A stretch of DNA of 32,000 bases from the NCBI GenBank assembly GCA_021650915.1, contig CP091279.1, positions 1,830,001 to 1,862,000 on the forward strand, read 5' to 3'. The DNA comes from Candidatus Brocadia sp. (GTDB lineage Bacteria; Planctomycetota; Brocadiia; Brocadiales; Brocadiaceae). The notes beneath the pieces are model-generated. The model saw only the letters and a list, made by a program, of their open reading frames with translations, made no database searches and was not told the origin of the DNA. The position numbers and the translations under genes are program-made. Numbering within the stretch: the stretch's first letter is position 1; every line of letters starts with the position of its first letter. Shown here piece after piece: positions 4,656 to 30,838 of the stretch.

Positions 4656-4938
4656 GAAATTTCGTAACGCTTTAGTTTTTTGAAAAATCCCGAAGGGATG
4701 ACATGATTATAGAAAAAACGCACCACCATATTCAACCCCGTAGGGGTGAAATATCGAAACAATAGCGATACTATGCCACCCCTACGGGGTTAACCATAAT
4801 TGCATAACACTATGCTATAATCATGTCATCCCTTCGGGATTACAGAATCACTATTTTGTTCACTCGTAGTGATTGTGAGCGAAAGTACGCTGAATAGATA
4901 CGAGAATTTTTCAAAAAGCTAAAGTGTTACGAAATTTC
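4656..4938. repeat. Nested inverted-repeat (multi-hairpin) element with GTAACRCTTTAG-TTTTTGAAAAA-type termini
   Basis: Outer arms 4656-4688 and 4906-4938 match at 31/33. Middle arms 4687-4712 and 4815-4840 are a perfect 26 bp. Inner arms 4734-4748 and 4778-4792 are a perfect 15 bp. An extra hairpin, AATCACTA...TAGTGATT, lies near 4846-4875. The termini are shared with element 13327-13477. Confidence 0.8.
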
Positions 4939-7050: not shown

Positions 7051-7413
7051 TCAGACGGCTTTGCAGAATGTGTCAGCTTTTCGTTCCATCGTAATAAGCT
7101 TTGCAAAAATATGCTCATACTTTTCGTCCAGCATTTTAAACATCTCGTTGTTAATATATTTGCACCTTAACGTAAACTCCAACCATGTTTGAGTTTCTGC
7201 CGCTTCTTGCTCGGCATCTGTTAATTTATTCACAAATACAGCCTTATATCTCCGTCTTCTCCAGCCTTCTGCGAGGTTAACACATACTGATCTTGACGAC
7301 CTGCGTATTTGGTCGGTTAAGGAATAAATCTCTTCCTTCGGAAAACCTCTTGAAATCTCAAATATCTCCATTGCAGCTTCGAGCGCCAACTGATAAACCT
7401 CCAAATCCCTCAC
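7051..7413 (-). CDS. Four-helix-bundle protein (23S rRNA intervening-sequence protein family)
   Basis: 120 aa with LEVYQLALEAAMEIFEISRGFPKEE..SLTDQIRRSSRSVCVNLAEG, characteristic of this family. It is flanked by imperfect inverted GGGACGAG-rich arms at about 7000-7050 and 7420-7470. Confidence 0.8.
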   Translation of the reverse strand: MRDLEVYQLALEAAMEIFEISRGFPKEEIYSLTDQIRRSSRSVCVNLAEGWRRRRYKAVFVNKLTDAEQEAAETQTWLEFTLRCKYINNEMFKMLDEKYEHIFAKLITMERKADTFCKAV

Positions 7414-7653: not shown

Positions 7654-8969
7654 GGTTCTTCTCCCAATTAGTTTGCAAAAGCTTGTATAATTTTTAATGA
7701 AAAGTACCGTTCGTCATGAAATCCATAAGCTTTTCTTTTGATAACTTTGATCTTATTATTAACCCCTTCGAGTTTACTGGTATGAATTTTATAATCACAG
7801 TGATTCAAGATTCCGTAGCGGTATTTTGTAAGCATATTTGCAAACGTATTCACGACAGAATAGTTGAGCGTTTTCGCTAAGAGGCTCCATTCATCAATGG
7901 CTTTTCTCGCCCACGTCCGTGAGGTATAGGTCCAAATATGTTTGAGCTTATCTTTAAGAATCAGAACGGTATTTATGGTTTCATTAAGCGACAAGAGCTG
8001 TTTGAGATGTTCTCGATGTTTTTTCCTGCGAATATTTCGTTTGTTTTTTAACAAAAGATATTTTGAACTCTTTTTGGTATTCAGCATTTCGCACCTTGTC
8101 AATAACTTTACCAAAACTTGAAACCACATGAAACAGGTCAAAGACTATCTTAACATGAGGCACGTGCTTTTTTACTGCATGAATATAAGGATCCCACATA
8201 TCCATGGCAATGGCCTCAAGCGCCTGCCTTTGTTCCTCTGTCATACCCGCAAAGAAGGTTCCCAGCGTTTCTTTTGTTCTTTCCTTTCCCACCCAGACTA
8301 CGCGGCCACTCAGATAGTCCAGAACAACAGTCAAATAGCGCTGTCCCTTCTTAACAGAGATTTCGTCTACTGCCAGTATGCGAAGATTCTGATAATCTGT
8401 CTGCGCGTATTGTCGTTCCAGAAAAAACTTGTCGATGGTTTTTACGGTTTTCCAGTTAATTCCAAAATGTTTTGCAACTTCGGTTACGGTTAACACTTTA
8501 CACAATTCGTGAATATACGCTGCTAAACGATGCGTAACACGACTGTAGGGTTGAAAAAACCCCAAGCCTTCAACTACAATTCGATTGCACGGCTCACAGG
8601 CAATCTTACGATACGAACAATGTATCCATACGCGAACTGAACCAGGATTCAGATCCCGCAAAGATCGTTTGTCATGACGGTAAATGCGCTGTGCTTTGCT
8701 GCCACACGCATGACATATTGGACGAAATCGTTCATCGGGCACGGCAGTAAGCTGAGATATCTCAGCATCAGGAAAAACAGTTTGCTTCGTAATTCTTACC
8801 CGCTGAAAAGGAAAATATGGTAATATACTTAATGGGGACATTGCTGGTCTCCTGTAAATAGTTTCTATAACGGTATATATCTATCTATAGGAAACACCAA
8901 ATGTCCACTCTTTTCAATGATTTAAAGGATTTTCTTCTCAATTCTTATTGACTAATTGGGAGAAGAATC
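7654..8969 (-). mobile_element. ISL3-family insertion sequence
   Basis: Terminal inverted repeats are GGTTCTTCTCCCAATTAGT (7654-7672) and ACTAATTGGGAGAAGAATC (8951-8969). They enclose an ISL3-type transposase. No clear target duplication was seen. Confidence 0.8.
7668..8841 (-). pseudogene. ISL3-family transposase split by a frameshift (ORFs 7984-8841 and 7668-8141)
   Basis: The N-terminal ORF has the zinc-finger CHACGS...CEPC and AVDEISVKKGQRYLTVV. The C-terminal ORF has LLLKN...LEGVNNKIKVIKRKAYGF. The frames change near the A-run CCAAAAAGAG at about 8060-8075. Confidence 0.8.
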
Positions 8970-9726: not shown

Positions 9727-11637
9727 CTAGGATGTCTGATTGACATTCGGGGGAAGTGCACCGCGATAATCTCCATAATCCTGACCTGGCCAATCCGTCG
9801 GTAGAGGTACAGCGCCGTCCGCGGCAGGGCCGTTAGGGTCAGGATAATAATTGCCGTCCAGATGAGGATCTGCTTCTACACCGGCGTCCTCAAAGCCACG
9901 GGAATAGTATTCCTTACTATCAGTAAAGCATTGTGATGCGCTAAACTCCGAAAGACTCCTAAAATTGCTCGTACTATTTCCATCTTCCCACAATCTGAGA
10001 AAATAATTTTGAGGATTCGCAGACTGACGATAGTAAATATTTCCATCATGGATTTGAGATCCATCTGATACTCTTACCCCTCTTGCGAGCCAATGATCCA
10101 TCGTTTGTATGATGATGTTGTTATAGACTTCCTGGGGATTATCGGGGTAAAAAGAACTCTCGGTATATTCATGCCCCGCACCTGCGTTATTCAACTCTTT
10201 ACCAAAGACAATGGTATTATTGTATATCTTCCAGGGATCACCTGTCCCATAGCCATTACCTTCATGCCTTGAAAAGGGACGTGCCCATACCATCCCGTCA
10301 CCATTCGGCCCATGATATTTCCTATTCAGTAAGTTGTTTGGATCATTCCTGCCACCTAACATCGACTTGCTACAATCAATAATGTTATGATGAATGTACT
10401 TTGTCCCAGGTTTAAGAGATGAGCCAGTTCCATGTCTGGAAGGGCCTTTTGAAACGAAGAGCATTTTGTTGTGATTTATTTCAATATCATAACACGCAGA
10501 CCCTAATTGAACCACATCATCCCTTGTTCCTTCAAACGTATTATGATGAATATGTAAATTAAATGCATTCCCTGCAACAATTCCATCCCAGGTTTTTCTA
10601 AATAGGCAATTTCTAACTTCGATATTGTTTGCTAAATTCTGAAAGTTTAGTGGCCCTCCTTGAAAACTCCCTCCAGGGCAGTTACCTATTTTCACATCGC
10701 TGTAAGCAATCCACGGTGGAACGTTATCGTTGACACTAATACCATCAAAAACAAGATCGTGAACATTGTCATGGATATAAACTGCTGCCCTACCACATGT
10801 TATACTAGAATTCGTTATGGAGATGTGATGTGACCCTGTTCTAAATTCAAGGGCGTTATTCTGATATCTTAAGTTAATGCCTACCATATCGACATAAGAA
10901 CATCCTTCTCCAAAAGTGATAACCTCATGACATGGGAAAATATACATCACTACAGAGCGGGGATCCATGTTTGATGGAATATTATAACCCATCGAAATCG
11001 CTTGACTACTGGGTTTTAAACGTATGTATATCCTTTCGTCAGTGCTATTCCAGAATATACCTGGGCCGATATAAATATCGCCAACGTTCGTATAATCTTC
11101 GTTATTGGCGCCAAGGTCATTGTATCGCCTGTAAGAAACAAGGCGATAATTACCGTCTTGTCTTCCAAAATATCCATGCACACCCATTGCATTATGATAA
11201 GTACGTACCGATCTATAGATACTTTTGCTAGAGTCGTATACCTCCCAATGTTTATTAGATGTTCTTCGAAAGTCCCTAAAACCACCATCAATAACAGGCA
11301 CCTCACTTTGATAATTCTTTATGAGAATTCTATTTGATGGAGTTCCCGAAACATTAATAGCAATCTGACTCTCATAGTAAGTTCCACCCCTGAGATAGAG
11401 TGTGTCTCCAGGCCGTAATTTAGCGATGCTCGTTTCTATAGTCCTCCAGGGAGAAGATAAGCTCCCGTTGTTTCGATCATTGCCGTTTGTTGCAACATAA
11501 TAGGTTGCTCCAAAGCATCTTTCGCCTGTCAATAAAAGAAGCGTTGCGGTTAAAGCTGCCAAAGAGATAAAAATGGTGGGAGTGGAAAGCGGAAAGTGTG
11601 GTTTTTTAAATATTTTTGAAATATGAGATAATAACAT
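9727..11637 (-). CDS. Secreted right-handed parallel beta-helix (pectate-lyase-fold) protein, paralog 1
   Basis: 636 aa. A signal-like hydrophobic N-terminus is followed by ATYYVATNGND..G....PWRTI...KLRPGDTLYLRGGTYY, then many beta-helix-like repeats (ITNSSI, VRNCLF, IHHNTF, INHNKM, IHHNII). It is near-identical to ORF 13964-15856. Confidence 0.8.
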   Translation of the reverse strand: MLLSHISKIFKKPHFPLSTPTIFISLAALTATLLLLTGERCFGATYYVATNGNDRNNGSLSSPWRTIETSIAKLRPGDTLYLRGGTYYESQIAINVSGTPSNRILIKNYQSEVPVIDGGFRDFRRTSNKHWEVYDSSKSIYRSVRTYHNAMGVHGYFGRQDGNYRLVSYRRYNDLGANNEDYTNVGDIYIGPGIFWNSTDERIYIRLKPSSQAISMGYNIPSNMDPRSVVMYIFPCHEVITFGEGCSYVDMVGINLRYQNNALEFRTGSHHISITNSSITCGRAAVYIHDNVHDLVFDGISVNDNVPPWIAYSDVKIGNCPGGSFQGGPLNFQNLANNIEVRNCLFRKTWDGIVAGNAFNLHIHHNTFEGTRDDVVQLGSACYDIEINHNKMLFVSKGPSRHGTGSSLKPGTKYIHHNIIDCSKSMLGGRNDPNNLLNRKYHGPNGDGMVWARPFSRHEGNGYGTGDPWKIYNNTIVFGKELNNAGAGHEYTESSFYPDNPQEVYNNIIIQTMDHWLARGVRVSDGSQIHDGNIYYRQSANPQNYFLRLWEDGNSTSNFRSLSEFSASQCFTDSKEYYSRGFEDAGVEADPHLDGNYYPDPNGPAADGAVPLPTDWPGQDYGDYRGALPPNVNQTS

Positions 11638-11699
11638 AACAGCACCTCCTTATAAAATTTGGCCGTAACAAACACCAGACCAACAAAGTGCTGTATTTG

Positions 11700-11785
11700 T
11701 CCGGCAACCCTGCGACCATGTCCTAAACAGGATTTAGGCCAGTAGCTTTGCGTCCCATCCTTTCGAATGGTTTGCCTTTTTCGGT
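11700..11785 (-). promoter_or_regulatory. c-di-GMP-I (GEMM-I) riboswitch aptamer in the leader of beta-helix paralog 1
   Basis: The minus-strand RNA is GGCAAACCAUUCGAAAGGAUGGGACGCAAAGCUACUGGCCUAAAUCCUGUUUAGGACAUGGUCGCAGGGUUGCC. It aligns almost block for block with the V. cholerae Vc2 aptamer (GGCAAACCAUUCGAAAGAGUGGGACGCAAAGCCUCCGGCC...GGUAGCGGGGUUACC). It lies about 60 nt upstream of the SD and ATG. Confidence 0.8.
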
Positions 11786-12000
11786 TTTTTATATGAACTT
11801 ATTTAATACATTTAAATCACATGTTAGTTAAGACATTCTAATACCTCCTTTCCAAAAAAAGACCCAAGTAAGAGTCAGCAACCACCCGCATAGCGGGTGG
11901 CTTGATTAGCCCCAAAAGGGTATTGTTACTGGCTCCCCTTAAGGGGTTACTTTTTAATTTTTCATGAACTTAATATACGCCTTTTCGATTTACAGCTTTA

Positions 12001-12312
12001 AATCTTTTCAACGTTCCTAAATTTCACCTTTAAACTATTGCCTTATAAGAATATTCTCTGCATCTTTGAGTACTTGTTCTTTGGTTTTATTGCAGACCTT
12101 TCCATAGCTCTTATCTGATTTTTGCTTTTTTTAATACCTATTTTTCAGAACTCCATACTCTTGAAATATTTTCGTACTTTTTTGAAACTTGTTTGCAAAA
12201 TCGATTCATACGAATAGCTTCTTTTGACTATATGACTTCTTCGATGATTTGTCGTATTAAATTGCTAAATACTACCGCATAACGGATGGTTTAGCTCAGG
12301 AATTAGTTTCTG
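12001..12312 (+). repeat. Non-coding repeat R, copy 1 (direct repeat of 13478-13807)
   Basis: About 310 nt align colinearly on the same strand with 13478-13807, with scattered substitutions and one ~24-nt indel. Only tiny ORFs are present, and they carry non-synonymous differences between the copies. Confidence 0.85.
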
Positions 12313-12340
12313 ACGCTTAGGTTTTGGTTAAACATCTATC

Positions 12341-12412
12341 ACATAACTTGGTAGCCCGGCAATCTTCTTTCAGAAGACCCATGACTTTGCGTCACAACCT
12401 CATGATTGGTTT
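12341..12412 (-). promoter_or_regulatory. Divergent orphan c-di-GMP-I-like aptamer
   Basis: The minus-strand RNA is GGUAAACCAAUCAUGAGGUUGUGACGCAAAGUCAUGGGUCUUCUGAAAGAAGAUUGCCGGGCUACC. It keeps the GACGCAAAG core and the GCCGGGCUACC 3' block. The first hairpin loop is not GNRA, and no ORF follows. Confidence 0.5.
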
Positions 12413-12747
12413 ACCTTTTTTCAAGTTTTTGTCTTATCAAAATTATAAATTTATATCACTAATAATTACGTTGTAGCCAATCTGCATCTCTGAACATCGG
12501 CGCTATTGTGAAATAGTTTAATATACATTGATTGATTTAGCCTCAAAAATTACTTTTTATTTAATTTCTCGTTTGTTTTGGAATAAAAAAGTTGTTTTTT
12601 ATTTTTTTTGTGTCTATTAATAGAAAGATCTCCGCCTTTCCCAAGACTACGTCTGTGAAAGGCGGCCATAAAGGGCAGTTGATTTTCTAAATGATTTCTC
12701 ATTATACTGGTATCAATATTTCGAGCACAACAATAGGGAGAAGTCAG

Positions 12748-13320
12748 ATGATAATACAGGACGAATTTTGTAAATACTACAAAGAGTCTCTTGAGGGCAC
12801 CTATGATTGTGTAGATCATATGATTCTCAATGCCTATTTTCCCTTGGCATAATCCAATGGTGGTTTTCGTACGTGATGGCGCATACTGATGCAAAACGAT
12901 GATACTCTTGACAACACCCATTTGATACGATTTGCTGGGAGATTTAGCCGAAGGATTCATGCCTATGCTAAAAAGAACGGTATCCCTCTGATTCATTGTC
13001 AACGTGACGAGTGTAAACATGAAATTGCCGAGCAGTATATTCCAGCAGAACCAACCTTTTGTAGTATATTTTGTATTCTGGTTGGTCGTGCGCCTGTATT
13101 TGAGGTAAAACGTTTTGCCAACGGTGGAATGGATATTACCAAAAAACCCCCATTCCTATGTGAATCAGTATTCGTTCCATATCATGGATCATGAATGGTG
13201 ACATCTGGTAATCAAACTCTGTCCGCATCCTCCGTTCACAGCGCAGATCATGTTGAATGGGCACGAGCACATGGCAATCCAGGCAAGGAAGGAGGTATTT
13301 CTTTCACCAAAGGAGCTAAA
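12748..13320 (+). pseudogene. Degenerate transposase-like gene remnant with multiple stops and frameshifts
   Basis: Pieced frames read MIIQDEFCKYYKESLEGTYDCVDHMILNAYFPLA*..GGFR.*W..DDTLDNTHLIRFAGRFSRRIHAYAKKNGIPLIHCQRDECKHEIAEQY...FHIMDHEW*HLVIKLCPHPPFTAQIMLNGHEHMAIQARKEGISFTKE. This resembles an N-terminal region of a transposase-like family I recall. It is truncated at the hairpin element. Confidence 0.45.
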
Positions 13321-13326
13321 GTAATA

Positions 13327-13477
13327 GTAACACTTTAGTTTTTTGAAAAATTACCATAATAACGATGTTGCCGCACGGTGTAGGGGCGAAGCATTTGCCA
13401 TACATTGGCATAAAGGTATTCACACCCCAAGCAGGCAAATGCTTCGCCCCTACCTTTTCAAAAAACTAAAGTGTTAC
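13327..13477. repeat. Nested inverted-repeat hairpin element, same family as 4656-4938
   Basis: Outer arms are GTAACACTTTAGTTTTTTGAAAA (13327-13349) and its reverse complement (13455-13477). Inner arms 13380-13399 and 13434-13453 are a perfect 20 bp. Confidence 0.85.
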
Positions 13478-13807
13478 AATCTTTTTAAAGTTCCTGAATT
13501 TCGCCTTTAAACTATTGCCTTATGAGAATATTCTCTGCATCTTTAAGTACTTGTTCTTTGGCTTTATTGCATACCTTTCCATCGTTCTTGTCTGATTTTG
13601 GCTTTTTTTAATACCTATTTTTCAGAATTCCATACTCTTGAAATATTTTCGTACTTTTTTGATGCTTGTTTGCAAAATCGATTCATACGAATAGCTTCTT
13701 TTGACTATATAACTTCTTCGATTATTTATCGTATTACATTGCTAAATACTGCAGCATAGCTTTTGCTATTCTCACCCGCATAGCGGGTAGTTTAGCTCAG
13801 GAATTAA
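13478..13807 (+). repeat. Non-coding repeat R, copy 2, directly upstream of the riboswitch of paralog 2
   Basis: It aligns with 12001-12312 on the same strand. It contains TTGACT (13701-13706), a 16-nt spacer and TATTTA as a possible rightward promoter. It ends with the hairpin CACCCGCATAGCGGGT plus AGTTTAGCTCAGGAATTA. Confidence 0.85.
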
Positions 13808-13814
13808 TCATCAA

Positions 13815-13905
13815 AACCCGAAAAGGCAAACCATCCGAAAGGGTGGGACGCAAAGCTACCGGCCTAAATCCTGTCTTAGGACATGGTAGCAGGGCTGCTG
13901 AGCAA
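13815..13905 (+). promoter_or_regulatory. c-di-GMP-I (GEMM-I) riboswitch aptamer in the leader of beta-helix paralog 2
   Basis: The RNA is GGCAAACCAUCCGAAAGGGUGGGACGCAAAGCUACCGGCCUAAAUCCUGUCUUAGGACAUGGUAGCAGGGCUGC. It has a GAAA tetraloop hairpin, the GACGCAAAGC core and an AGCAGGGCUGC 3' block as in Vc2. A weak hairpin plus U-run (UGCUGAGCAAAUCAGCACUUUUU) follows, then SD AAGGAGG and GTG 13964. Confidence 0.85.
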
Positions 13906-13963
13906 ATCAGCACTTTTTAGGCCTCGTGTTTGTTACGGTCAAATTTTATAAGGAGGTGTTATT

Positions 13964-15856
13964 GTGTTATTATCTCGTATTTCAAAAATATTTAAAAAAC
14001 CATACTTTTCACTTTCCACCATTTTTATCTCTTGGGCAGTTTTAGCCTCAACGCTTCTTCTATCAATAAGTGAAAAATGTTTCGGAGCAACCTATTATGT
14101 TGCAACAAATGGCAATGATCAAAACAGCGGGAGCTTATCTTCTCCCTGGAGGACTATAGAAACGAGCATCGCTAAATTACGGCCTGGAGACACACTCTAT
14201 CTCAGGGGTGGAACTTACTATGAGAGTCAGATTGCTATTAATGTTTCGGGAACTCCATCAAATAGAATTCTCATACAAAATTATTCAAATGAGGTACCTA
14301 CAATTGATGGTGGTTATATGGAATTCAGGGAGATACTCAATTCCGATTGGGAGTTGTATGATTCTACGAGAGGTATCTATAGATCAGTACGTACTTATTC
14401 TAATGCCGTGAGTGTGGATGGATATTTTGGGAGCCAAAACGGTAATTATCGCCTTGTTCCTTATGCAAGATACAGTAATCTTAGTTCGAGCAACGAGAAT
14501 TATACCCGGTCAGGTAGCATCTATATCGGCCCCGGTATATTCTGGAATAGCACTAACGAAAGGATATACATACGTTTAAAACCCAGTAGTCAAGCGATTT
14601 CGATGGGTTATAATATTCCATCAAACATGGATCCCCGTTCTGTAGTGATGTATATTTTCTCAAGTCACGAGGTTGTCACTTTTGGAGAAGGATGTTCTTA
14701 TGTCGATATGGTAGGCATTAATTTAAGATATCAGAATAACGCCCTTGAATTTAGAAATGGGTCACATCACATCTCTATAACGAATTCTAGTATAACATGT
14801 GGTAAGACAGCGATTTATACCCACAACAATGTTCACGATCTTGTTTTTGATGGTATTAGTGTCAATGATAACATCCCACCGTGGATTGCTTACAGCGATG
14901 TGAAAATAGGTAACTGCCCTGGAGGGAGTTTTCAAGGAGGGCCACTAAACTTTCAGAATTTAGCAAACAATATCGAAGTTAGAAATTGCCTATTTAGAAA
15001 AACCTGGGATGGAATTGTTGCAGGGAATGCATTTAATTTACATATTCATCATAATACGTTTGAAGGAACAAGGGATGATGTGGTTCAATTAGGGTCTGCG
15101 TGTTATGATATTGAAATAAATCACAACAAAATGCTCTTCGTTTCAAAAGGCCCTTCCAGACATGGAACTGGCTCATCTCTTAAACCTGGGACAAAGTACA
15201 TTCATCATAACATTATTGATTGTAGCAAGTCGATGTTAGGTGGCAGGAATGATCCAAACAACTTACTGAATAGGAAATATCATGGGCCGAATGGTGACGG
15301 GATGGTATGGGCACGTCCCTTTTCAAGGCATGAAGGTAATGGCTATGGGACAGCTGATCCCTGGAAGATATACAATAATACTATTGTCTTTGGTAAAGAG
15401 TTGAATAACGCAGGTGCGGGGCATGAATATACCGAGAGATCTTTTTACCCCAATAATCCCCAGGAAGTCTATAACAACATCATCATACAAACGATGGATC
15501 ATTGGCTTGCAAGAGGGATAAGAGTATCAGATGGATCCCAAATCCATGATGGAAATATTTACTATCGCCAGTTTGCGAATCCTCGAAATTATTTTCTCAG
15601 ATTGTGGGAAGATGGAAATAGTACGAGCAATTTTAGGAGTCTTTCGGAGTTTAGCGCATCGCAATGCTTTACTGATAGTAAGGAATACTATTCCCGTGGC
15701 TTTGAGGACGCCGGTGTAGAAGCAGATCCTCATCTGGACGGCAATTATTATCCTGACCCTAACGGCCCTGCCGCGGACGGCGCTGTACCTCTACCGACGG
15801 ATTGGCCAGGTCAGGATTATGGGGATTATCGTGGTGCATTACCTCCTCTAAACTAA
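13964..15856 (+). CDS. Secreted right-handed parallel beta-helix (pectate-lyase-fold) protein, paralog 2
   Basis: 630 aa with the same architecture as 9727-11637. The C-terminal two thirds are nearly identical at nucleotide level. A divergent patch lies at about residues 105-190. Confidence 0.8.
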   Translation: MLLSRISKIFKKPYFSLSTIFISWAVLASTLLLSISEKCFGATYYVATNGNDQNSGSLSSPWRTIETSIAKLRPGDTLYLRGGTYYESQIAINVSGTPSNRILIQNYSNEVPTIDGGYMEFREILNSDWELYDSTRGIYRSVRTYSNAVSVDGYFGSQNGNYRLVPYARYSNLSSSNENYTRSGSIYIGPGIFWNSTNERIYIRLKPSSQAISMGYNIPSNMDPRSVVMYIFSSHEVVTFGEGCSYVDMVGINLRYQNNALEFRNGSHHISITNSSITCGKTAIYTHNNVHDLVFDGISVNDNIPPWIAYSDVKIGNCPGGSFQGGPLNFQNLANNIEVRNCLFRKTWDGIVAGNAFNLHIHHNTFEGTRDDVVQLGSACYDIEINHNKMLFVSKGPSRHGTGSSLKPGTKYIHHNIIDCSKSMLGGRNDPNNLLNRKYHGPNGDGMVWARPFSRHEGNGYGTADPWKIYNNTIVFGKELNNAGAGHEYTERSFYPNNPQEVYNNIIIQTMDHWLARGIRVSDGSQIHDGNIYYRQFANPRNYFLRLWEDGNSTSNFRSLSEFSASQCFTDSKEYYSRGFEDAGVEADPHLDGNYYPDPNGPAADGAVPLPTDWPGQDYGDYRGALPPLN

Positions 15857-15931: not shown

Positions 15932-16352
15932 CTACAGGCCGACCTGTCCGGATGCGTAAACCTTGGGCGGCGGTTGTTCAGGAAGCGTTAGTCCCAGCTG
16001 CGCCAAAAGGAGGGCAACATCCTTCTCCGGCTGGGTATAACGGCTCATGACAATATGACGGCCATCCGTGGTCGGTAAATGAACGTCTATCATTTGAATG
16101 CCCGGCAGTTTTTTCAAAATCGCTTCCGACGTCAGCCCGACGGCTCTCCCCCGCGCAAGATTGCGCAACGTCGTGTGGAGACAAAAAACCAAAAAGGAAA
16201 TAAAGATATGGGCTTCAATTCTCCGTTCCAGTTGGTGCCATAGGGGGCGGAGGGAAAGCGATCCTTTCAAGTCCTTAAATGCCTGTTCTGTCCGCGTCAA
16301 CAGCAAATAATTTTCCCAGACGGTTTCTGGCGCGGCGGCCTGCATGTTGGAG
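15932..16352 (-). pseudogene. C-terminal fragment of IS1634/IS4-like transposase X, interrupted by element 16353-24503
   Basis: Sequence ..SNMQAAAPETVWENYLLLTRTEQAFKDLKGSLSLRPLWHQLERRIEAHIFISFLVFCLH..TDGRHIVMSRYTQPEKD carries the Y..R...E......K-type C-terminal DDE motif region. The first residues of the listed ORF come from the inserted element's end. Confidence 0.7.
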
Positions 16353-16489
16353 CGGATGTTCACCCCAAGCAAAACACGTAAGTATTTAATATATTGGTAG
16401 TTAGTGTGGTTTTGTCGGCAATTATGTAGTCACTAATATATTGTTATTATTCAATAATATGCTTGAAATGTTGAATAATATAGTATATT

Positions 16490-17430
16490 ATGGTGGACAT
16501 GCATATTGTGGAAAATAAATCAAAATCCGGTAAAAAAATCTATCGCTCCATTCTTTTGCGGGAATCGTATCGGGAAGGCGGAAAGGTCAGGAAGCGTACC
16601 ATTGCAAATCTGTCGAACTGCACATCGCAGGAGATAGAAGCGATAAAGCTTGCCCTTAGCCATAAAGAGGATCTCGGTGCATTGGGCGCACTCTCAGAGG
16701 TGGAACTCCAGGAGGGGATGTCCGTGGGGGCGATCTGGGGTGTGTATCAGGTGGCAAAGGAATTAGGGATAGAGGAGGCGTTGGGGAAGGATTTTCAGGG
16801 GAGACTGGCGCTGTGGCAGGTAATGGCGCGGGTGATAAATCAGGGGTCAAGACTCTCGGCGGTAAGGCTGGCGCAGGTGCATGCGGCGGGTGATGTGCTG
16901 GGTATGAAGCGGGGGTTCGACGAAAATGATCTCTACGATAATTTATCGTGGTTATCGGAGCATCAGGCAAAGATAGAGCGAACGTTGTTTGATGCAAGAC
17001 GGGCAGGCAAAAAGCCGAAGCTGTTTCTGTATGACGTGACGAGCAGTTATGTGGAGGGGGAGTTAAATCATTTTGGTGAGTACGGGTATAATCGTGACGG
17101 CAAGAAGGGGAAGAAGCAGATCGTGATTGGTATGCTGTGTGATGAATTTGGGGAGCCGGTGTCCACGGAGGTATTTCGGGGCAATACCCAGGACCCAAAG
17201 ACCTTTGAGTCTCAGGTAAAGAAGACGGCAGAACGGTTTGGGTGCACCGGGGTGACCATGGTAGGTGATCGGGGGATGATCAAGACGATGCAAATCGAAT
17301 GTTTGCCGGAAGGATTTCATTACATAACGGCGATAACCAAGCCGCAGATCGAGTCGTTGATAAAACAAGGGATTCTGCAGTTAGGGCTGTTTGAAGAAAA
17401 GCTCTGCGAGATAAAGAGTGAGGGGATTCG
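16490..17430 (+). pseudogene. IS1634-family transposase, N-terminal ~314 aa, cut by IS 17431-19490
   Basis: Motifs are KSGKKIYRSILLRESYREGGKVRKRTIANLS and the first DDE region LFLYDVTSSYVEGE. The region NRDGKKGKKQIVIGML..MVGDRGM follows. The listed ORF tail (YRACA*) is IS-derived. Confidence 0.7.
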
Positions 17431-19490
17431 CTATAGAGCCTGCGCATAAACTAAAAAACAAGCCATGAAAAGGCGGAACTGCATCATGTGTGCATTGACA
17501 GAGAAACGGATTTCACTCAAAAGCGAGGTCAAAGAGAGAGAGAAAAACGATTCGTCAGAGGACACCAGACCAAATAAGCCGAATTCCAGACGTACCATCC
17601 CTCCACACGACGACTCTTTTACGCTGAAAACCAGATTTAGTTTCTTAACAAGACATGAAACGCAATCATGGTTTTATCCAGGTATGCCTGGAACGAATCG
17701 TTTCCCCGCTTCGTGAGCCGATCATCCCCAAAGTCACACTTCAACCGTTTTATCATCCTTTCCACCGCAGGACGACGGGACATGATGGCCTTGTACCTCT
17801 TCGCCATCGGAGGGTCTTTGGGGTCTATGTGTGGCAAGAGATCAAACGAGATATTGATTATCCTGCCACCGGTAGCGTTTGGGCAACAATCCTCGCGATG
17901 ATAACAAGCGCGACATACCGGCGCATTGTCTGAATCCTTTGGCGCTTGATAGATAAACTTCTCATGTTCGTATCTCATCCCCCTGATATTCCATCTCGTA
18001 TCCCGCCTTACACACCGGAATACCATACGGTGTAATCTTGTCTATTCCTCGTGGCAAATCTTCCGTGATCTCCTTTTTCCTTCTTGGATTGAAAGACACC
18101 TTTACCTCTATACCCAGATCCTCCCTGAATTTCTTCTTGATTTCATCACTGTCGCCTGCGCTATCATACAATACCCTTTCTACCGACGGTTGAATCTCCG
18201 GATACATCTCAAAGACTTCCTTCACGTGCGGGTATAAGGTCATTCCATCAAAGGTCGCCGCATCCTTTATCGCACGCGCATCTAAGGGTATCCCTTGACG
18301 GGGATACCCAAGCACACTTGCCTTGTGACCCCAATACATCTTTCCCCCGGATTTTACGATTGTCCCCGCCCCATCATCACTCAATCCCCACGAATGACTG
18401 CACCCCTGCTTATCTTCGCAACCACACCTCTTGGTTACCTTTGACTGCGATTTCTTCTGCTCTTTGCCACTCGCATCTTTATATACTACGGTCTCAAAGC
18501 CCGAATACGCGTAATAATGGGTCGTGTCTCCCACCAACTCATTTTCCTTTCTTATGATCCCACTCGTTATGTTCGCTTTCACCTCTTCCACTTTTATCCT
18601 CGCCCATATCCCGCTTTCTCTCATGATCTGGTCAAACTGCTCCAGCTTCCGAAGGCTTGGTATGTGCTCACTGCAATACTCGTCCCTGACGTGTCTGGGA
18701 ATAAATCCACATACCCGCGCAAAACTGGGATTGCTCTTCAATAACCGGTACACCTTTTCCGGCTCGGCGGGAAACCCCATTATCGTTGCACCGATAAAAC
18801 TCTTCAGCAAAGCAAAAAAACACTTCGGCTTTTTCCCCCCAAATCGAAATGGCACCTTGCCAGGCGCTATACTCTCCGGAGATACCCCCGATAGCGACAA
18901 ATCTTCTCTTTTTACCTCGAATAAAACCCCTTCTCCTCTCTCACCCTCTGCCTGCATGGTTACCCGTGAAAAGAGCAATCTCTGCCGCGCTTCCTCCTTG
19001 GTCTCCCTCGCATCTTTCTCCCCCTCAACTCCTCGCTCTTCTCGCTCCCTGGCCTGCTTCTGGTTAAATTCATGCAGCGCATTATAATAGTCTACTCCAA
19101 ACCCCACATATCTTTCGTATCGAAAATGGTACAATACCTGAAACCACTCCGCATCATCGGTATTCAGCAAATATCTGTCGTCTTCATGAATGATATGGAA
19201 TAATGGTTTTTGCTGGCTTGTGTTCCTCAATAATGGTATCATTTCACTGTGCCCTCCCTTGTATGGTATTTCGAATAGTTTGCCTGATTTATTATACAAG
19301 ATGGGCACGACTATTTTGTAATTTTTCCCCTCTTTTCTTCAAATATTTTTTCATCTCCCCTGAAAAACAAGCCTTTTCATGCTGCCGTTCTTGATATCTT
19401 TTTGTAGACTTTACAAAATTATTACCCCGTCCTATCGCCTCTTCTCCCTGATTTACAACGAATCTTTTCGCTTATGCGCCAGCTCTATAG
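17431..19490 (-). mobile_element. IS4/IS5-superfamily insertion sequence, family not assigned
   Basis: The terminal inverted repeats are CTATAGAGCCTGCGCATAA (17431-17449) and TTATGCGCCAGCTCTATAG (19472-19490), matching at 17/19. The flanks (..ggattcg / tctttat..) show no target duplication. Confidence 0.75.
17637..19308 (-). pseudogene. DDE transposase of IS 17431-19490, split by one frameshift (448-aa and 129-aa ORFs)
   Basis: Motifs are GDTTHYYAY, LYDSAGDSDE and RPAVERMIKRLKCDFG..L..RG, with a Cys-rich insert CRACYHREDCC. The two ORFs overlap at 17962-18026 (..GYEMEYQG / MRYEHEKFIYQAP..). Confidence 0.7.
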
Positions 19491-21147: not shown

Positions 21148-23160
21148 GCGTGCCTTGAAGTATGGGATACCTAAGTGGTTGAAAATATCACCTCTGCGAG
21201 CCTAAATCCTCGTAGAGAAGTTTGTACCTATGCGTATACAAAGGAACAATCCGTATGCGTAGAAGGATAGCGTATTCCCGTGAGGGGTATGACGGAGTTA
21301 CGAGGTACAGACGACCTTTTGGGGTGTATGAGTATGGCGTGTTAGTTCGTGCCAACTGCCCTTTCTCAGTGAAGCACTGACAATGTCCTTGTTGGAGATG
21401 TCAAAAGAGACCTGGTGAAAACATCTCTGGATAATGCGTTTGAACATACATCACGAAGGGAAAAGGGGTAATTCATATGACCGGGGGAGGACTTACGTCT
21501 TGGGAAGAAATTCCCTAACAGCGAGGTATAAGGGAAATCTGAAATCCAAGCTGTATGAGATGGTGACGGACGACTGGCTCTCACAGGTCTGTCTTTGAAG
21601 TCGTCAGCATTGCTCATAATAGTTTCTGGTGTGTACCAGGAATGAAGGGGCATAACCGTAGTGGAGTTGATGAAACGTGGTAGATTGAATACGTTCCATG
21701 AGAAAAGAGACTCTTTGCATGGGCAAGTAGTAGCAAGAGCCTCTCTTGTTTTGCCTCTGTCAGGAGGAATCTCGACTCAGGAAACACGATTGACAAGTCT
21801 ATTATCCGGAATCAATCAAAAGGAACATATCGGGAGATGCTTAAGCATCATTCTTTAAGAGACAAGGTATTCAGTCTGAGAAACCTTTATGCGGCTTTTG
21901 GGCACGTAAAGAAGAATAAAGGCAAGGCTGGTCTCGACAGGGTAAGTATTAAGCAGTTTGAAAGTGACCTTGAGAATAATCTACAAGCTGTTCACAAGGA
22001 ACTGAAAACCGCCATATACAACCCTGCGCCCGTCCTAAGGGTCTACATTCCCAAAGGCAGGCATGACAAGAGACCTCTTGGCATTCCCATTGTCAAGGAC
22101 AGGGTAGTACAGCAAGCGGTCAGACAAATCATAGAGCCAATATTCGAGAAAGAATTCTCGGATAACAGCTTTGGATTTCGTCCAAACAGATGCTGTCATG
22201 ATGCTATCAAACGGATTGAACAGTATAAGCAGCAAGGGTATCGGAACATTTTGGACGCCGATATAAAGGCGTTCTATGACACCATACCTCACAAGCTTAT
22301 CATGAACTCCTTGCGTGAGAAAATCGCTGACGGATGGGTGTTGAACAGTATCGAGAACATGCTCAAGGCAGGGGTCATGGAGAACGGCATCGTGCACGAG
22401 ACAAATCAAGGCACTCCGCAAGGAGGCGTCATATCTCCCTTGCTTGCAAACCTTATCGGTGACATCATCGACAAGGAGCTTGAAAAGGCAGGATATAAAT
22501 TTGTCCGCTATGCCGATGACTTCGTTGTCATGACTAAAACAAAAGAAGAACTCCCTACCGCCCTTCAGTACGTCAAAGAAATCATCGAAGGGAAACTTGA
22601 AATGAAGCTGAGCGAGGATAAAACCAGGCTCACCAACTTCAAACGAGGCTTCCGGTTTCTCGGATATAATTTCATGGGCAAGAACAAGGGTGTAAGCATG
22701 AAATCCCTGGACAAACTCAAGGACGCCGTCAGAGACATCACCAAACGCACACAAGGCGTCAACCTGCAAGCCGTCATTGATACATTAAATCCTGTCATAA
22801 GGGGACATGTCAACTATTTTCGGCTGGGCAATGTACAAACGGTATATCGCTCGTTAGACTGCTGGGTACGCATGAGACTGAGAAGTTTCAAGTTTTCGAG
22901 AAAATGGAAAACTGACAACAAACGTTTCCCGGTACACCGATTCTTTAAGATGGGGTTACTCTCATTTGAAAGAGAATTTCTTAAGGCACGTGCGAAGGCA
23001 CGATAGTTTACTTTTCTCTGCTCCAGAGCAACACTATGGGGTCGCTAACTACGGGAAAGCCGTATGGTTTAAAAGGATGCTTTGGTACGTTGTTCAAAGT
23101 ATCTGGCGACGATTGGGGGTTGGAGGCGATTCGCCTCCTTCCTACCAGCTAATTCTCGGA
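21148..23160 (+). mobile_element. Group II intron, inner copy, complete (~2.0 kb)
   Basis: Boundaries come from comparing the filled and empty site: host gagaaag|GCGTGCC...TACCAGCT|aattctcgg. The RT ORF sits in the expected domain IV position. DV/DVI-like hairpins lie at about 23070-23160 (GCCGUAUGG...GGUACGUU; GGAGGCGAUUCGCCUCC). Confidence 0.8.
21837..23006 (+). CDS. Group II intron reverse transcriptase/maturase, no endonuclease domain
   Basis: 389 aa. RT motifs are RPLGIPIVKDRVVQQA, FGFRPNR, LDADIKAFYDTIPH, GTPQGGVISPLLANL and YADDFVV. Then FLGY and a maturase X-like tail. Confidence 0.9.
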   Translation: MLKHHSLRDKVFSLRNLYAAFGHVKKNKGKAGLDRVSIKQFESDLENNLQAVHKELKTAIYNPAPVLRVYIPKGRHDKRPLGIPIVKDRVVQQAVRQIIEPIFEKEFSDNSFGFRPNRCCHDAIKRIEQYKQQGYRNILDADIKAFYDTIPHKLIMNSLREKIADGWVLNSIENMLKAGVMENGIVHETNQGTPQGGVISPLLANLIGDIIDKELEKAGYKFVRYADDFVVMTKTKEELPTALQYVKEIIEGKLEMKLSEDKTRLTNFKRGFRFLGYNFMGKNKGVSMKSLDKLKDAVRDITKRTQGVNLQAVIDTLNPVIRGHVNYFRLGNVQTVYRSLDCWVRMRLRSFKFSRKWKTDNKRFPVHRFFKMGLLSFEREFLKARAKAR

Positions 23161-24786: not shown

Positions 24787-25278
24787 ATGAAAAACAGGAG
24801 TACAATAAGTTTGAAGACAAATAACACGCCAGGGGAAACGGAAGGAGCCCGTAGGGCGACTGGAGTTTCCCCTGGCGGCGCAATTCAAAGCGATCATTTT
24901 CCTGACCCTGAGGTAACCGAGAAGGCTGTTCGGAGGAAATTCACCGCGAAATACAAACTCCGCATCCTTCAAGAGGCGGAAGTCTGTGCCACACAGGGTC
25001 AAATGGGGGCGCTTTTACGCCGTGAAGGACTCTATTCGTCCAACCTCACTACATGGCGTCGTCAACAGAAGAAAGGCGCCCTGGAAACGCTTTCCCCAAA
25101 ACATCGCGGCCCAAAGGCGAAAAATATCACTCCCTCCGATCGTCGTATTGCTGAACTGGAAAAGGAAAACTGTCAGCTGAAAGAGAAACTCAAACAGGCA
25201 GAAACCATTATTGACGTCCAAAAAAAACTCTCGGAAATACTTCGGATACCGCTCGATCCAACCGGAGAGAAAATATGA
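24787..25278 (+). CDS. IS3-family transposase OrfA (HTH plus leucine-zipper region)
   Basis: 163 aa. The tail has heptad Leu/Ile spacing (IAELEKENCQLKEKLKQAETIIDVQKKL). Its stop overlaps the orfB ATG. Confidence 0.75.
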   Translation: MKNRSTISLKTNNTPGETEGARRATGVSPGGAIQSDHFPDPEVTEKAVRRKFTAKYKLRILQEAEVCATQGQMGALLRREGLYSSNLTTWRRQQKKGALETLSPKHRGPKAKNITPSDRRIAELEKENCQLKEKLKQAETIIDVQKKLSEILRIPLDPTGEKI

Positions 25279-26276
25279 TGCGTGCCGCTGAATCTCTTGC
25301 TCAACAGGTGCGTATCAAAAAGGCCTGCAAGGCGCTGGGTATCCCAAGAGCGACTTACTATTACTACCAGAAAGGGAAACATGACCTCGTGGGAAAAAGA
25401 GGTTATTCGACTCCTCCACTGGCATTATCTGAGCAAGAACAGCAAGCGGTACTTGATATCTTACATAGTGAACGCTTTATGGATAAGGCCCCGCATGAGA
25501 TTTATGCAACGTTGCTTGATGAAGGAACCTACCTGTGCTCCACAAGAACCATGTACCGGATCCTTGAAAAACATGGTGAAGTGCATGAAAGAAGAAACCT
25601 GGTGCTCAGACCCCATTACCAGAAACCGGAGCTCCTGGCAACGGCCTCCAATCAGGTATGGTCATGGGATATTACAAAACTCAAGGGGCCTGCAAAGTGG
25701 ACATATTTCTATCTCTATGTCATTCTCGACATCTTCAGCCGTTATGTCGTCGGATGGATGGTTGCATACCGTGAACTGGCCGCATTGGCGCAACGACTTA
25801 TCGTGGATAGCTGTCAAAAACAGACTATCAGGCCTGAACAACTGGTAATCCACGCTGATCGTGGATCAAGTATGACATCCAAGCCTGTGGCGTTTCTTCT
25901 GTCTGATCTGGGAATAACAAAAAGTCATTCTCGTCCTTACGTCAGTAACGACAACCCTTATTCGGAGGCACAGTTTAAAACCCTCAAGTACAGGCCGGAT
26001 TTCCCGGATACTTTCGGCTCAATTGAGGATGCCAGGGTCTTCTGTAAGAGCTTCTTCACCTGGTACAATACAGAACATCGTCATTCCGGCATCGGTCTCT
26101 TGAAACCAGAAGACGTCCACTATGGACGTACGCATCAAATTGTGAAAGAATGAAGTCTTGTCTTAAAAACCGCCTTTGAAAATCACCCTGAACGATTCAA
26201 AGAAATTCCCCCTAAACCATCAAGTGCGCCTGTGGCTGCTTGGATTAATAAACCAAAAACGGAATTTACTCTGTGA
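25275..26276 (+). pseudogene. IS3-family transposase OrfB (DDE integrase core) with an in-frame TGA at 26151-26153
   Basis: The DDE region reads VWSWDITK...IHADRGSSMTS...YSEAQFKTLK. After the TGA the same frame continues SLVLKTAFENHPERFKEIPPKPSSAPVAAWINKP, the conserved IS3 tail, up to 26276. Confidence 0.75.
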
Positions 26277-26280
26277 TTAG

Positions 26281-30805: not shown

Positions 30806-30838
30806 TAGTATAACGTTTCACAAAAACATTGACAAATA

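What the first reader, a model, noticed from the sequence alone, without database searches (positions are those of the whole stretch)
11700..13905. Two c-di-GMP-I (GEMM-I) riboswitch aptamers head a divergent pair of secreted beta-helix genes
The leaders of both paralogs (11700-11785 minus, 13815-13905 plus) contain GGCAAACC-hairpin(GAAA)-GGGACGCAAAGC-...-GGUAGCAGGGCUGC. This matches the Vc2 c-di-GMP-I aptamer nearly block for block, and each sits about 60 nt upstream of a strong SD and start codon. It would put two extracellular pectate-lyase-fold proteins, plausibly matrix or polysaccharide-acting enzymes or adhesins, directly under second-messenger control. The sequences downstream of the two aptamers differ. 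Copy 2 has a hairpin plus U-run and copy 1 does not, so the two copies could respond differently to the same ligand.
Basis: partly seen in the sequence, partly recalled or inferred. Interest (0 to 1): 0.75.

Follow-up and report, generated by a model that had tools for sequence, protein, structure and literature searches.

The report
c-di-GMP riboswitches on Brocadia glycan-enzyme genes
Two, in fact three, textbook cyclic-di-GMP class I riboswitch aptamers sit between a mirror-image pair of secreted beta-helix sugar-polymer enzyme genes in an anammox bacterium (Candidatus Brocadia); this is a new example of a well-known kind of RNA switch.

Summary
Rfam RF01051 (c-di-GMP-I) matches 11700-11786(-) at 87.8 bits and 13815-13902(+) at 79.3 bits (gathering score 35). 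All three keep G20, C44, A47, G83 and C92.

The two genes (636 and 630 aa) with their leaders are one inverted duplication. The organism is Candidatus Brocadia. The proteins have an N-terminal hydrophobic helix and a confident right-handed beta-helix. Their relatives lie in Wzy/GT4/priming-transferase exopolysaccharide clusters.

The riboswitch and its 60-nt expression platform are conserved in Jettenia orthologues, but are absent from paralogues inside operons.

The platform has two competing structures. A hairpin (S1) uses the aptamer's 3' tail, including C92. An anti-SD:SD helix (S2) is kept by two compensatory changes in a paralogue that lacks the aptamer.

I infer a translational OFF switch, at about 55-60%: bound c-di-GMP locks the tail, S1 fails and S2 hides the ribosome site. 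Copy 2 instead pairs the tail directly with the anti-SD (6 bp plus U5). In two sister strains its aptamer carries two damaging substitutions.

This is a new member of a known kind, of moderate to low interest.

The parts
11700..11786 (-). c-di-GMP-I aptamer 1. G20 = 11776, C44 = 11752, A47 = 11749, G83 = 11713, C92 = 11704. It has a GAAA tetraloop and a tetraloop receptor. P1 is CCG (11784-11782) paired with CGG (11703-11701).
   Evidence: RF01051 at 87.8 bits, E 2.5e-16, model 1-87. The sequence is 100% identical in three other assemblies of the species.
11638..11705 (-). Expression platform 1. Hairpin S1 pairs 11705-11693 (aptamer tail GCCGG plus ACAAAUAC) with 11675-11662 (GUGUUUGUUACGGC). 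The anti-SD ACAGCACUUU is at 11694-11685. The SD strand GAGGUGCUGU is at 11648-11639, with GGAGG at 11649-11645.
   Evidence: Folding. Near-invariance against the Jettenia leaders. The RBS-opening cost is 5.6 kcal/mol in the apo-like state and 11.8 in the holo-like state, and 0 of 150 shuffles reach that difference. S2 shows covariation.
9727..11637 (-). Gene 1: a 636-aa protein with an N-terminal hydrophobic helix (residues 18-35) followed by a Pel9A-like right-handed beta-helix.
   Evidence: AlphaFold pLDDT 92.8. Foldseek PDB matches.
13815..13902 (+). c-di-GMP-I aptamer 2. G20 = 13825, C44 = 13849, A47 = 13852, G83 = 13889, C92 = 13898. P1 is weakened because the tail reads GCUGAG.
   Evidence: RF01051 at 79.3 bits. 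In strains L003 and L077 it carries GAAA>AAAA and ACGC>ACAC, and scores 68.8 bits in L003.
13896..13918 (+). Copy-2-specific hairpin T, UGCUGA-GCAAA-UCAGCA, followed by CUUUUU. It pairs the aptamer tail (including C92) directly with the first bases of the anti-SD.
   Evidence: Terminator-like site. -7.8 kcal/mol, z = -2.5.
13903..13963 (+). Expression platform 2. The anti-SD CAGCACUUUUU is at 13908-13918 and the SD GGAGG at 13952-13956.
   Evidence: 8 of 10 S2 pairs are kept.
13964..15856 (+). Gene 2: a 630-aa paralogue with a GTG start, 89% identical to gene 1. It is identical to UJS22289.1 of Candidatus Brocadia sp.
   Evidence: Gene-conversion mosaic.
12347..12425 (-). Third c-di-GMP-I aptamer. 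All five signature nucleotides are present. P1 is CUUG/CAAG. There is no tetraloop receptor. The loop reads AUGA here and GUGA in two sister strains. No ORF follows it.
   Evidence: RF01051 at 51.9 bits, E 1.4e-7, and 55.5 bits in L003. ORF list. Polymorphism.
9749..11788 (.). Left arm of the inverted duplication (gene 1 plus leader 1). The right arm is 13813-15846.
   Evidence: the repeat finder pairs I1-I5 and I7, 78-97% complementary.
13813..15846 (.). Right arm of the inverted duplication (leader 2 plus gene 2). It ends 2 nt upstream of the aptamer, so the promoter region of copy 1 was not duplicated.
12001..12305 (+). Direct repeat D1/D2, copy a. Copy b is 13478-13806, 93% identical, and lies immediately upstream of aptamer 2. 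It is non-coding and its role is unknown.
   Evidence: No Rfam match.

Best explanation
These are real c-di-GMP class I (GEMM-I) riboswitches in Candidatus Brocadia. Aptamers 1 and 2 each head a monocistronic mRNA for one of two paralogous exported beta-helix enzymes. These enzymes probably cut or modify the cell's own exopolysaccharide.

Control is most likely at translation initiation and of the OFF type. Without ligand, the aptamer's 3' tail (C92 plus the 3' strand of P1) pairs downstream. In copy 1 and in Jettenia this forms the long hairpin S1. In copy 2 it forms the short hairpin T, which pairs directly with the anti-SD. Either structure traps the conserved anti-SD sequence ACAGCACUUU, so the Shine-Dalgarno site is open.

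When c-di-GMP is bound, the tail is locked into the pocket and P1. S1 or T then cannot form, the anti-SD pairs with GGAGGUGCUGU (helix S2), and ribosome binding is blocked. High c-di-GMP (the aggregated, matrix-building state) would therefore shut the enzymes off, and low c-di-GMP would release them.

Shown: aptamer identity, the signature nucleotides, conservation of the platform, covariation in S2, and the protein fold and gene context. Inferred: ligand binding, the direction of the switch, and the enzyme's substrate.

Copy 2 has a weakened P1 and, in sister strains, a damaged aptamer, so it is probably less responsive or unresponsive. Aptamer 3 is an orphan.
For: Identity: RF01051 scores of 87.8, 79.3 and 51.9 bits against a gathering score of 35. 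G20, A47, C92 and the C44-G83 pair are present in all three; their roles are taken from PMC4744006 and PMC5888326.

Conservation: the same aptamer and platform precede the orthologues in Jettenia ecosi (71.9 bits) and J. caeni (86.9 bits). The leader is about 90% identical while the proteins are 61-65% identical.

S2 is real. In the aptamer-less J. ecosi paralogue, 9 of 10 S2 pairs survive through two double compensatory changes (C:G>U:A and G:C>A:U) and one U.G>C:G change. In the same sequence 7 of 13 S1 pairs are broken. S1 therefore travels with the aptamer, and S2 does not.

S1 and T both use the tail that contains C92.

In silico, blocking the aptamer tails raises the cost of opening the RBS in all four leaders: +6.2, +2.4, +2.6 and +1.3 kcal/mol. 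For copy 1, 0 of 150 linker shuffles reach the observed value.

Protein: beta-helix at pLDDT 92.8. The fold matches GH120, GH136, PL9, PL6, capsule depolymerases and the biofilm lyase RbmB. Homologues lie beside Wzy_C, GT4 and Bac_transf genes.
Against: No binding or expression data exist. Equilibrium folding does not change the probability that the SD is unpaired between states. The RBS-cost shift is individually non-significant for three of the four leaders (11-24 of 150 shuffles reach it). The four leaders are closely related, and the covariation rests on one hand-aligned paralogue. J. ecosi has an A.C mismatch in the middle of S2. Hairpin T in copy 2 looks like an intrinsic terminator, which would make that copy an ON switch at the level of transcription. 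Enzymes encoded in EPS clusters are often co-expressed with synthesis, which would favour ON. No promoter or transcription start is mapped.
Confidence: 0.6

Rival explanations
1. ON-type riboswitches. S1 (copy 1 and Jettenia) and T plus its U-run (copy 2) would be the repressing elements, acting as terminators or as blocks that form without ligand. c-di-GMP binding would prevent them and switch the enzymes on together with matrix synthesis.
For: S1 and T share the aptamer tail, which is the classic two-element ON design. T is a 6-bp GC-containing hairpin followed by U5 and is flagged as terminator-like. Three or four copy-2-specific substitutions all act to create it. The homologues are embedded in EPS biosynthesis clusters, and c-di-GMP correlates with more EPS in anammox sludge (PMC11224092).
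Against: S1 is followed by CAAAUUUUAU, not by an adjacent U-tract, and the terminator scan did not call it. If S1 or T is prevented, the anti-SD becomes free to pair with the SD, and S2 is supported by covariation, so read-through mRNA would still be blocked. The modelled RBS cost goes up, not down, in the holo-like state in all four leaders.
Confidence: 0.3
2. The aptamers sense a different cyclic dinucleotide, such as 3'3'-cGAMP as in the Geobacter GEMM-Ib RNAs, or another variant ligand.
For: RF01051 belongs to a clan with variant-specificity families, and lower-scoring clan matches overlapped here.
Against: RF01051 was the best clan member for all three. The position equivalent to G20 is G, not A, and C92 and A47 are kept (alignments; roles). 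That an A at position 20 marks cGAMP-selective GEMM-Ib RNAs comes from my own recall and was not checked here.
Confidence: 0.03
3. Only leader 1 is a working switch. Aptamer 2 would be drifting out of use and aptamer 3 would be a relic stranded by rearrangements, so the 'differential response' would simply be decay.
For: In two sister strains aptamer 2 has GAAA>AAAA and a change that breaks the C13-G36 pair, dropping the score from 79.3 to 68.8 bits in L003. Its P1 is reduced to about 2 pairs. Aptamer 3 has a non-GNRA loop in this window, no receptor and no downstream ORF. The spacer holds a dead transposase, a MITE and duplications.
Against: In this window aptamer 2 is intact at every signature position and scores 79 bits. 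Aptamer 3 still scores well above the gathering score, keeps all five signature nucleotides and a clean 4-bp P1, and is conserved in four assemblies.
Confidence: 0.25

Closest known systems
Vc2 and Vc1 c-di-GMP-I riboswitches of Vibrio cholerae (Rfam RF01051)
   Same: They share the same two-helix aptamer with a GAAA tetraloop and receptor, the G20/A47/C92 ligand contacts and the C44-G83 interhelical pair. They lie in the 5' leaders of genes for extracellular or surface functions. Vc1 controls the secreted protein GbpA (PMC4744006).
   Different: The phylum differs (Planctomycetota, Brocadiaceae). The downstream gene family differs (an EPS-cluster beta-helix enzyme). The platform is built from the S1 and S2 helices described here, and the direction is probably OFF, whereas Vc1 is reported to enhance expression.
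Bc1 c-di-GMP-I riboswitch of Bacillus thuringiensis (PMC11218506); also Cd1 of Clostridioides difficile, which I cite from my own recall only
   Same: Both belong to class I aptamers that govern cell-surface, adhesion or motility genes. I recall Cd1 as an OFF switch. Bc1 shows that long, multi-element platforms occur (abstract seen).
   Different: Bc1 acts through rho-independent terminators (abstract), and I recall the same for Cd1. Here the conserved element is an SD-sequestering helix, and only copy 2 has a terminator-like hairpin.
Matrix glycanases encoded with exopolysaccharide genes, such as the V. cholerae VPS lyase RbmB (PDB 9ozd/9ozl)
   Same: Both have a right-handed beta-helix fold (Foldseek E about 1e-4). 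Both are linked to a polysaccharide-matrix locus and have a plausible role in matrix turnover or dispersal.
   Different: Identity is only about 10% and TM-scores are low. The best structural matches are GH120, GH136 and BT_1002 hydrolases. No catalytic residues were assigned, and the substrate is unknown.

Membership tests
c-di-GMP-I riboswitch (GEMM-I, RF01051) | Covariance-model score at or above the curated gathering score (35 bits) over the full model | tested here: met
   87.8, 79.3 and 51.9 bits, all covering model 1-87. The orthologous leaders score 71.9 and 86.9 bits.
c-di-GMP-I riboswitch (GEMM-I, RF01051) | Ligand-contacting nucleotides G20, A47 and C92, and the interhelical C44-G83 pair | tested here: met
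   Read from the cmscan alignments at model positions 11, 38, 83, 35 and 74. All are present in aptamers 1, 2 and 3. Their roles are taken from PMC4744006 and PMC5888326.
c-di-GMP-I riboswitch (GEMM-I, RF01051) | GNRA tetraloop docking into a receptor in the other helix (type 1 architecture) | tested here: met
   Aptamers 1 and 2 have GAAA plus the CCUAAA...AUGG receptor columns. The feature is not met by aptamer 3: its loop is AUGA here and GUGA in L003 and L042, and the receptor columns are deleted.
c-di-GMP-I riboswitch (GEMM-I, RF01051) | Position in a 5' leader, with a platform that overlaps the aptamer's 3' end | tested here: met
   Aptamers 1 and 2 lie 61-62 nt before the start codons, and S1 and T both use the tail that contains C92. 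This is not met by aptamer 3, which has no ORF within about 560 nt.
c-di-GMP-I riboswitch (GEMM-I, RF01051) | Selective binding of c-di-GMP and ligand-dependent gene control | not testable with these tools
   This needs in-line probing or ITC, and reporter assays.
cGAMP-selective GEMM-Ib variant | An A at the position equivalent to G20 (my own recall of the Geobacter work; not checked in a paper here) | tested here: not met
   G is at model position 11 in all three aptamers.
PL9 pectate lyase / Pel9A-like beta-helix (PF22842, NF041899) | Profile score above the curated cut-off | tested here: not met
   PF22842 does not appear in my own scans of the window protein, even at E up to 10. Precomputed hits on record list it for these genes. 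The J. caeni homologue P0002 scores 19 bits against a cut-off of 25.2. PelN scores 50 bits against 740, over the N-terminal cap only.
Right-handed parallel beta-helix carbohydrate-active enzyme fold | Predicted structure is a right-handed beta-helix that matches solved hydrolases and lyases of this fold | tested here: met
   pLDDT 92.8 and pTM 0.90. Foldseek PDB E-values run from 2.8e-13 (3vst, GH120) to about 1e-4 (PL6, PL9, RbmB), with 53 hits at E <= 0.001. TM-scores are only 0.2-0.5, so the match is at fold level, not family level.

The most novel reading that the evidence does not exclude
The locus could be a three-input c-di-GMP device for remodelling anammox granule matrix. Two paralogous matrix glycanases would be shut off by c-di-GMP with different sensitivities, copy 1 tight and copy 2 leaky through its tail:anti-SD hairpin. 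The orphan third aptamer would gate a roughly 560-nt non-coding RNA that is 93% complementary over 281 nt to the D1b segment directly upstream of aptamer 2. That RNA would act as a riboswitch-controlled antisense regulator of the second paralogue.
Probability: 0.07. Interest if true: 0.65.

Novelty: new member of a known kind. Interest (0 to 1): 0.33.

Why it matters
Anammox bacteria do their work in wastewater plants as dense granules held together by exopolysaccharide and glycoprotein. c-di-GMP levels correlate with EPS content in such sludge (PMC11224092). My full-text searches found no paper that links a c-di-GMP receptor to a specific anammox matrix gene.

These leaders give a direct, testable RNA link between the messenger and an exported glycan-acting enzyme family in Brocadia and Jettenia. 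They also give a natural pair of paralogues with different platforms for studying how a riboswitch is retuned or lost after duplication.

For riboswitch biology this is another instance of a thoroughly characterised class. A genome annotated against Rfam would probably pick it up, although I could not check any record.

Tried and rejected
1. I scanned the metagenome collection with an aptamer pattern shared by the four leaders, hoping for diverse homologous platforms. It returned 94 loci. Only L042 and L077 carry the beta-helix gene, and both are the same species at 92-98% protein identity (97-99% DNA identity). The rest precede flagellar rod genes, cheW, Fn3/InlB-repeat secreted proteins, a protease and similar genes from other sources. 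The scan therefore gave no extra covariation, only confirmation that this aptamer type is widespread.

2. Equilibrium probabilities that the SD is unpaired are the same with and without aptamer constraints. I dropped this measure in favour of the free-energy cost of opening the RBS, with a shuffle control.

4. The MAFFT alignment of the aptamer-less paralogue misplaced a 2-nt gap. I realigned it by hand before counting pairs.

5. The paralogues and homologues in L002, L005, L006, L008, L010, L011 and L012 have no RF01051 match, even at E up to 0.5 for L002, L011 and L012.

7. The sigma-70 scan found no promoter upstream of any aptamer. The hexamers I saw by eye (TTAACT-17-TATTAA before aptamer 1, TATAAT at 12447-12442 before aptamer 3) are unverified.

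8. No tRNA is present, although the D2 repeat contains a tRNA-like GTTTAGCTCAGG string.

9. dN/dS on gene 2 was abandoned because gene conversion between the copies dominates the differences.
Full report
**Observation.** A covariance-model scan of the whole 32-kb window against Rfam 15 returns three matches, all to RF01051 (c-di-GMP-I) and all covering model positions 1-87 (repeated with permissive filters). They are 11700-11786(-) at 87.8 bits (E 2.5e-16), 13815-13902(+) at 79.3 bits (E 3e-14) and 12347-12425(-) at 51.9 bits (E 1.4e-7). The gathering score is 35.

The third was not reported. The aptamer ends lie 62 and 61 nt upstream of the starts of ORFs 9727-11637(-) (ATG, 636 aa) and 13964-15856(+) (GTG, 630 aa). 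Each ORF is preceded by AAGGAGG.

The terminator scan flags TGCTGAGCAAATCAGCA + CTTTTT at 13896-13918. It folds at -7.8 kcal/mol with z = -2.5, whereas the same stretch of copy 1 does not fold better than shuffles.

**Aptamer anatomy.** Papers on Vc1 and Vc2 give G20, A47 and C92 as the ligand contacts and a universally conserved interhelical C-G pair (PMC4744006, PMC5888326). In the Rfam alignment these correspond to model positions 11, 38, 83 and to the pair 35/74.

All five are present in all three aptamers. In aptamer 1 they are G11776, A11749, C11704 and C11752/G11713. In aptamer 2 they are G13825, A13852, C13898 and C13849/G13889.

Aptamers 1 and 2 have a GAAA tetraloop and the receptor columns. 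Aptamer 3 lacks the receptor. Its loop reads AUGA here and GUGA in two sister assemblies. The position-20 base is G, which speaks against the cGAMP-type variant.

P1 directly follows C92. It is CCG/CGG in aptamer 1 and CUUG/CAAG in aptamer 3. In aptamer 2 it is reduced to about two pairs, because the tail reads GCUGAG.

**Origin and context.** The exact gene-2 protein is UJS22289.1 from a 4.05-Mb Candidatus Brocadia sp. MAG. Cluster mates come from B. fulgida, UTAMX2 and AMX3.

Genes plus leaders are one inverted duplication, 9749-11788 against 13813-15846, at 78-97% identity. It ends 2 nt before aptamer 2, so copy 2 did not inherit copy 1's promoter region. The two genes exchange sequence by gene conversion, and the mosaics differ between strains.

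The 2-kb spacer holds:
- a direct repeat, 12001-12305 and 13478-13806;
- a dead transposase-like gene;
- a 151-nt MITE;
- aptamer 3.

Three other assemblies of the species carry the same locus: L003, L042 and L077. In L003 the DNA to the right of gene 2 is an exopolysaccharide cluster with a methyltransferase, GT4, Wzy_C and AsnB. In this window that position holds IS1634 debris followed by more mobile elements.

**The proteins.** Profile matches are all below their cut-offs: DUF1565, Beta_helix, and the N-terminal cap of PelN. With a 51-sequence alignment AlphaFold gives pLDDT 92.8 and pTM 0.90. The model has an N-terminal helix (residues 18-35; hydrophobic in the translation) and a long right-handed beta-helix.

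Foldseek against the PDB finds beta-helix glycoside hydrolases: GH120 XylC at E 2.8e-13, BT_1002 and GH136. It also finds polysaccharide lyases: PL9 Pel9A, K1 capsule lyase, PL6 and the V. cholerae VPS lyase RbmB. TM-scores are only 0.2-0.5.

Homologues across metagenomes sit next to Wzy_C, GT4, GT2 and Bac_transf genes. J. caeni has four paralogues within 10 kb. The best reading is an exported enzyme that acts on the cell's own exopolysaccharide. The chemistry, whether hydrolase, lyase or epimerase, is unknown.

**Conservation of the riboswitch.** One paralogue in J. ecosi (L001, 71.9 bits) and one in J. caeni (L004, 86.9 bits) carry the same aptamer at the same distance from the start. The whole leader down to the start codon is nearly invariant between Brocadia and Jettenia, although the proteins are only 61-65% identical. 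That indicates selection on the platform itself.

Paralogues and homologues inside operons have no aptamer.

Within the species, leader 1 is identical in all four assemblies. Aptamer 2 in L003 and L077 carries GAAA>AAAA and ACGC>ACAC, and scores 68.8 bits in L003. Both changes hit conserved features.

**Mechanism.** Two mutually exclusive structures follow the aptamer.

S1 pairs the aptamer tail plus the next bases (GCCGGACAAAUAC, 11705-11693) with GUGUUUGUUACGGC (11675-11662). It therefore competes with C92 and P1.

S2 pairs ACAGCACUUU (11694-11685) with GAGGUGCUGU (11648-11639). This covers the SD and the spacer up to the start codon.

The J. ecosi paralogue that lost the aptamer keeps 9 of 10 S2 pairs. 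It does so through two double compensatory changes and one U.G>C:G change. In the same sequence S1 has 7 of 13 pairs broken (hand-corrected alignment). S2 is therefore a selected SD-sequestering helix, and S1 exists only together with the aptamer. This is the pattern expected of an anti-sequestor.

I modelled the ligand-bound state by blocking the junction and tail nucleotides. This raises the free-energy cost of opening the RBS in all four leaders:
- Copy 1: from 5.6 to 11.8 kcal/mol, a difference that 0 of 150 linker shuffles reach.
- Copy 2: +2.4 kcal/mol, reached by 14 of 150 shuffles.
- J. ecosi: +2.6 kcal/mol, reached by 11 of 150 shuffles.
- J. caeni: +1.3 kcal/mol, reached by 24 of 150 shuffles.

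I therefore favour a translational OFF switch. This is an inference, at about 55-60% for direction.

In copy 2, three or four substitutions turn the tail and the first bases of the anti-SD into hairpin T. The same logic then runs through a direct tail:anti-SD pairing. P1 is weaker in this copy, so a shift towards the open, ligand-insensitive state is expected.

The rival is that S1 and T are the repressing elements, giving an ON switch. For copy 2, T plus U5 may also act as a terminator. I give this rival about 30%.

**Aptamer 3.** It is a distinct type-2-like member of the class, not a copy of aptamers 1 or 2. It has a perfect TATAAT 16 nt upstream. No ORF of 25 aa or more follows it before aptamer 1. 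A terminator-like hairpin with U7 lies at 11876-11861(-).

Its downstream RNA would be the reverse complement of repeat D1a. It would therefore be 93% complementary to D1b, which lies upstream of aptamer 2. Whether it is a relic, a riboswitch-led non-coding RNA or an antisense regulator is unresolved.

**Comparison and novelty.** By every sequence-level criterion that could be tested, aptamers 1 and 2 are members of RF01051. Ligand binding could not be tested.

GEMM-I leaders in front of secreted or surface proteins are the rule. The metagenome scan illustrates this: the same aptamer type precedes flagellar, chemotaxis and secreted-repeat-protein genes.

What is specific here is the host (anammox Brocadiaceae), the target family (an EPS-cluster beta-helix enzyme), the S1/S2 platform and the diverging duplicate. 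Full-text searches found no paper connecting c-di-GMP riboswitches with anammox bacteria.

Verdict: the finding is correct. It is a new member of a known kind, of moderate to low interest.

Noticed in passing
12347-12425 (-): A third c-di-GMP-I aptamer (51.9 bits) with no ORF behind it. A perfect TATAAT lies at 12447-12442(-), and a terminator-like hairpin plus U7 lies at 11876-11861(-), about 560 nt downstream.
   Followed up: partly
13327-13477 and 4664-4930: Two copies of a MITE with 23-nt terminal inverted repeats, GTAACACTTTAGTTTTTTGAAAA. In sister strain L003 the first copy is flanked by an 8-bp duplication, AATCTTTT. The window has a roughly 350-nt deletion next to it relative to L003.
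   Followed up: yes
12700-13330 (+): A transposase-like gene broken by stops and frameshifts (fragments of 53, 101 and 47 aa), with no profile match. In L003 its right end carries the same terminal motif (CTAAAGTGTTAC) as the MITE, so it may be the decayed autonomous parent.
   Followed up: partly
12001-12305 and 13478-13806: A 93%-identical direct repeat that is non-coding, AT-rich and has no Rfam match. One copy lies between aptamers 3 and 1. The other abuts the 5' side of aptamer 2 and must contain or follow that gene's promoter.
   Followed up: partly
11884-11898 and 13774-13788: The perfect palindrome ACCCGCATAGCGGGT occurs exactly twice in 32 kb, 98 nt upstream of aptamer 1 and 27 nt upstream of aptamer 2. 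Across all six matches found at up to 3 mismatches, chance expectation is 0.33. It could be an operator or part of a repeat module.
   Followed up: partly
11828-11849 (-): A strong SD (AAGGAGG) followed by ATG-TCT-TAA, a two-codon mini-ORF about 45 nt upstream of aptamer 1. It may be the stump of an older gene start.
   Followed up: no
9727-11637 vs 13964-15856; L003, L077: Gene conversion between the inverted paralogues. Codons 130-200 are only 77% identical between the two copies here and in L077. In L003, gene 2 matches gene 1 at 99.5-100% across codons 60-400.
   Followed up: yes
7668-8841, 15932-17449, 21837-23006, 24787-27967, 29662-31864: The locus is embedded in mobile DNA: ISL3 fragments, split IS1634 transposase pieces directly after gene 2, a group II intron reverse transcriptase, and IS3-, IS66- and IS630-like transposases. 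In strain L003 an EPS biosynthesis cluster follows gene 2 instead.
   Followed up: partly
L002:2928-3006 (Jettenia ecosi paralogue): A paralogue leader that has lost the aptamer and hairpin S1 but keeps the anti-SD:SD helix through two compensatory base-pair changes. This suggests constitutive damping of translation.
   Followed up: yes
7051-7413 (-): A 120-aa four-helix-bundle protein (TIGR02436, E 7e-29; weak Avd-like match), next to the ISL3 debris.
   Followed up: no
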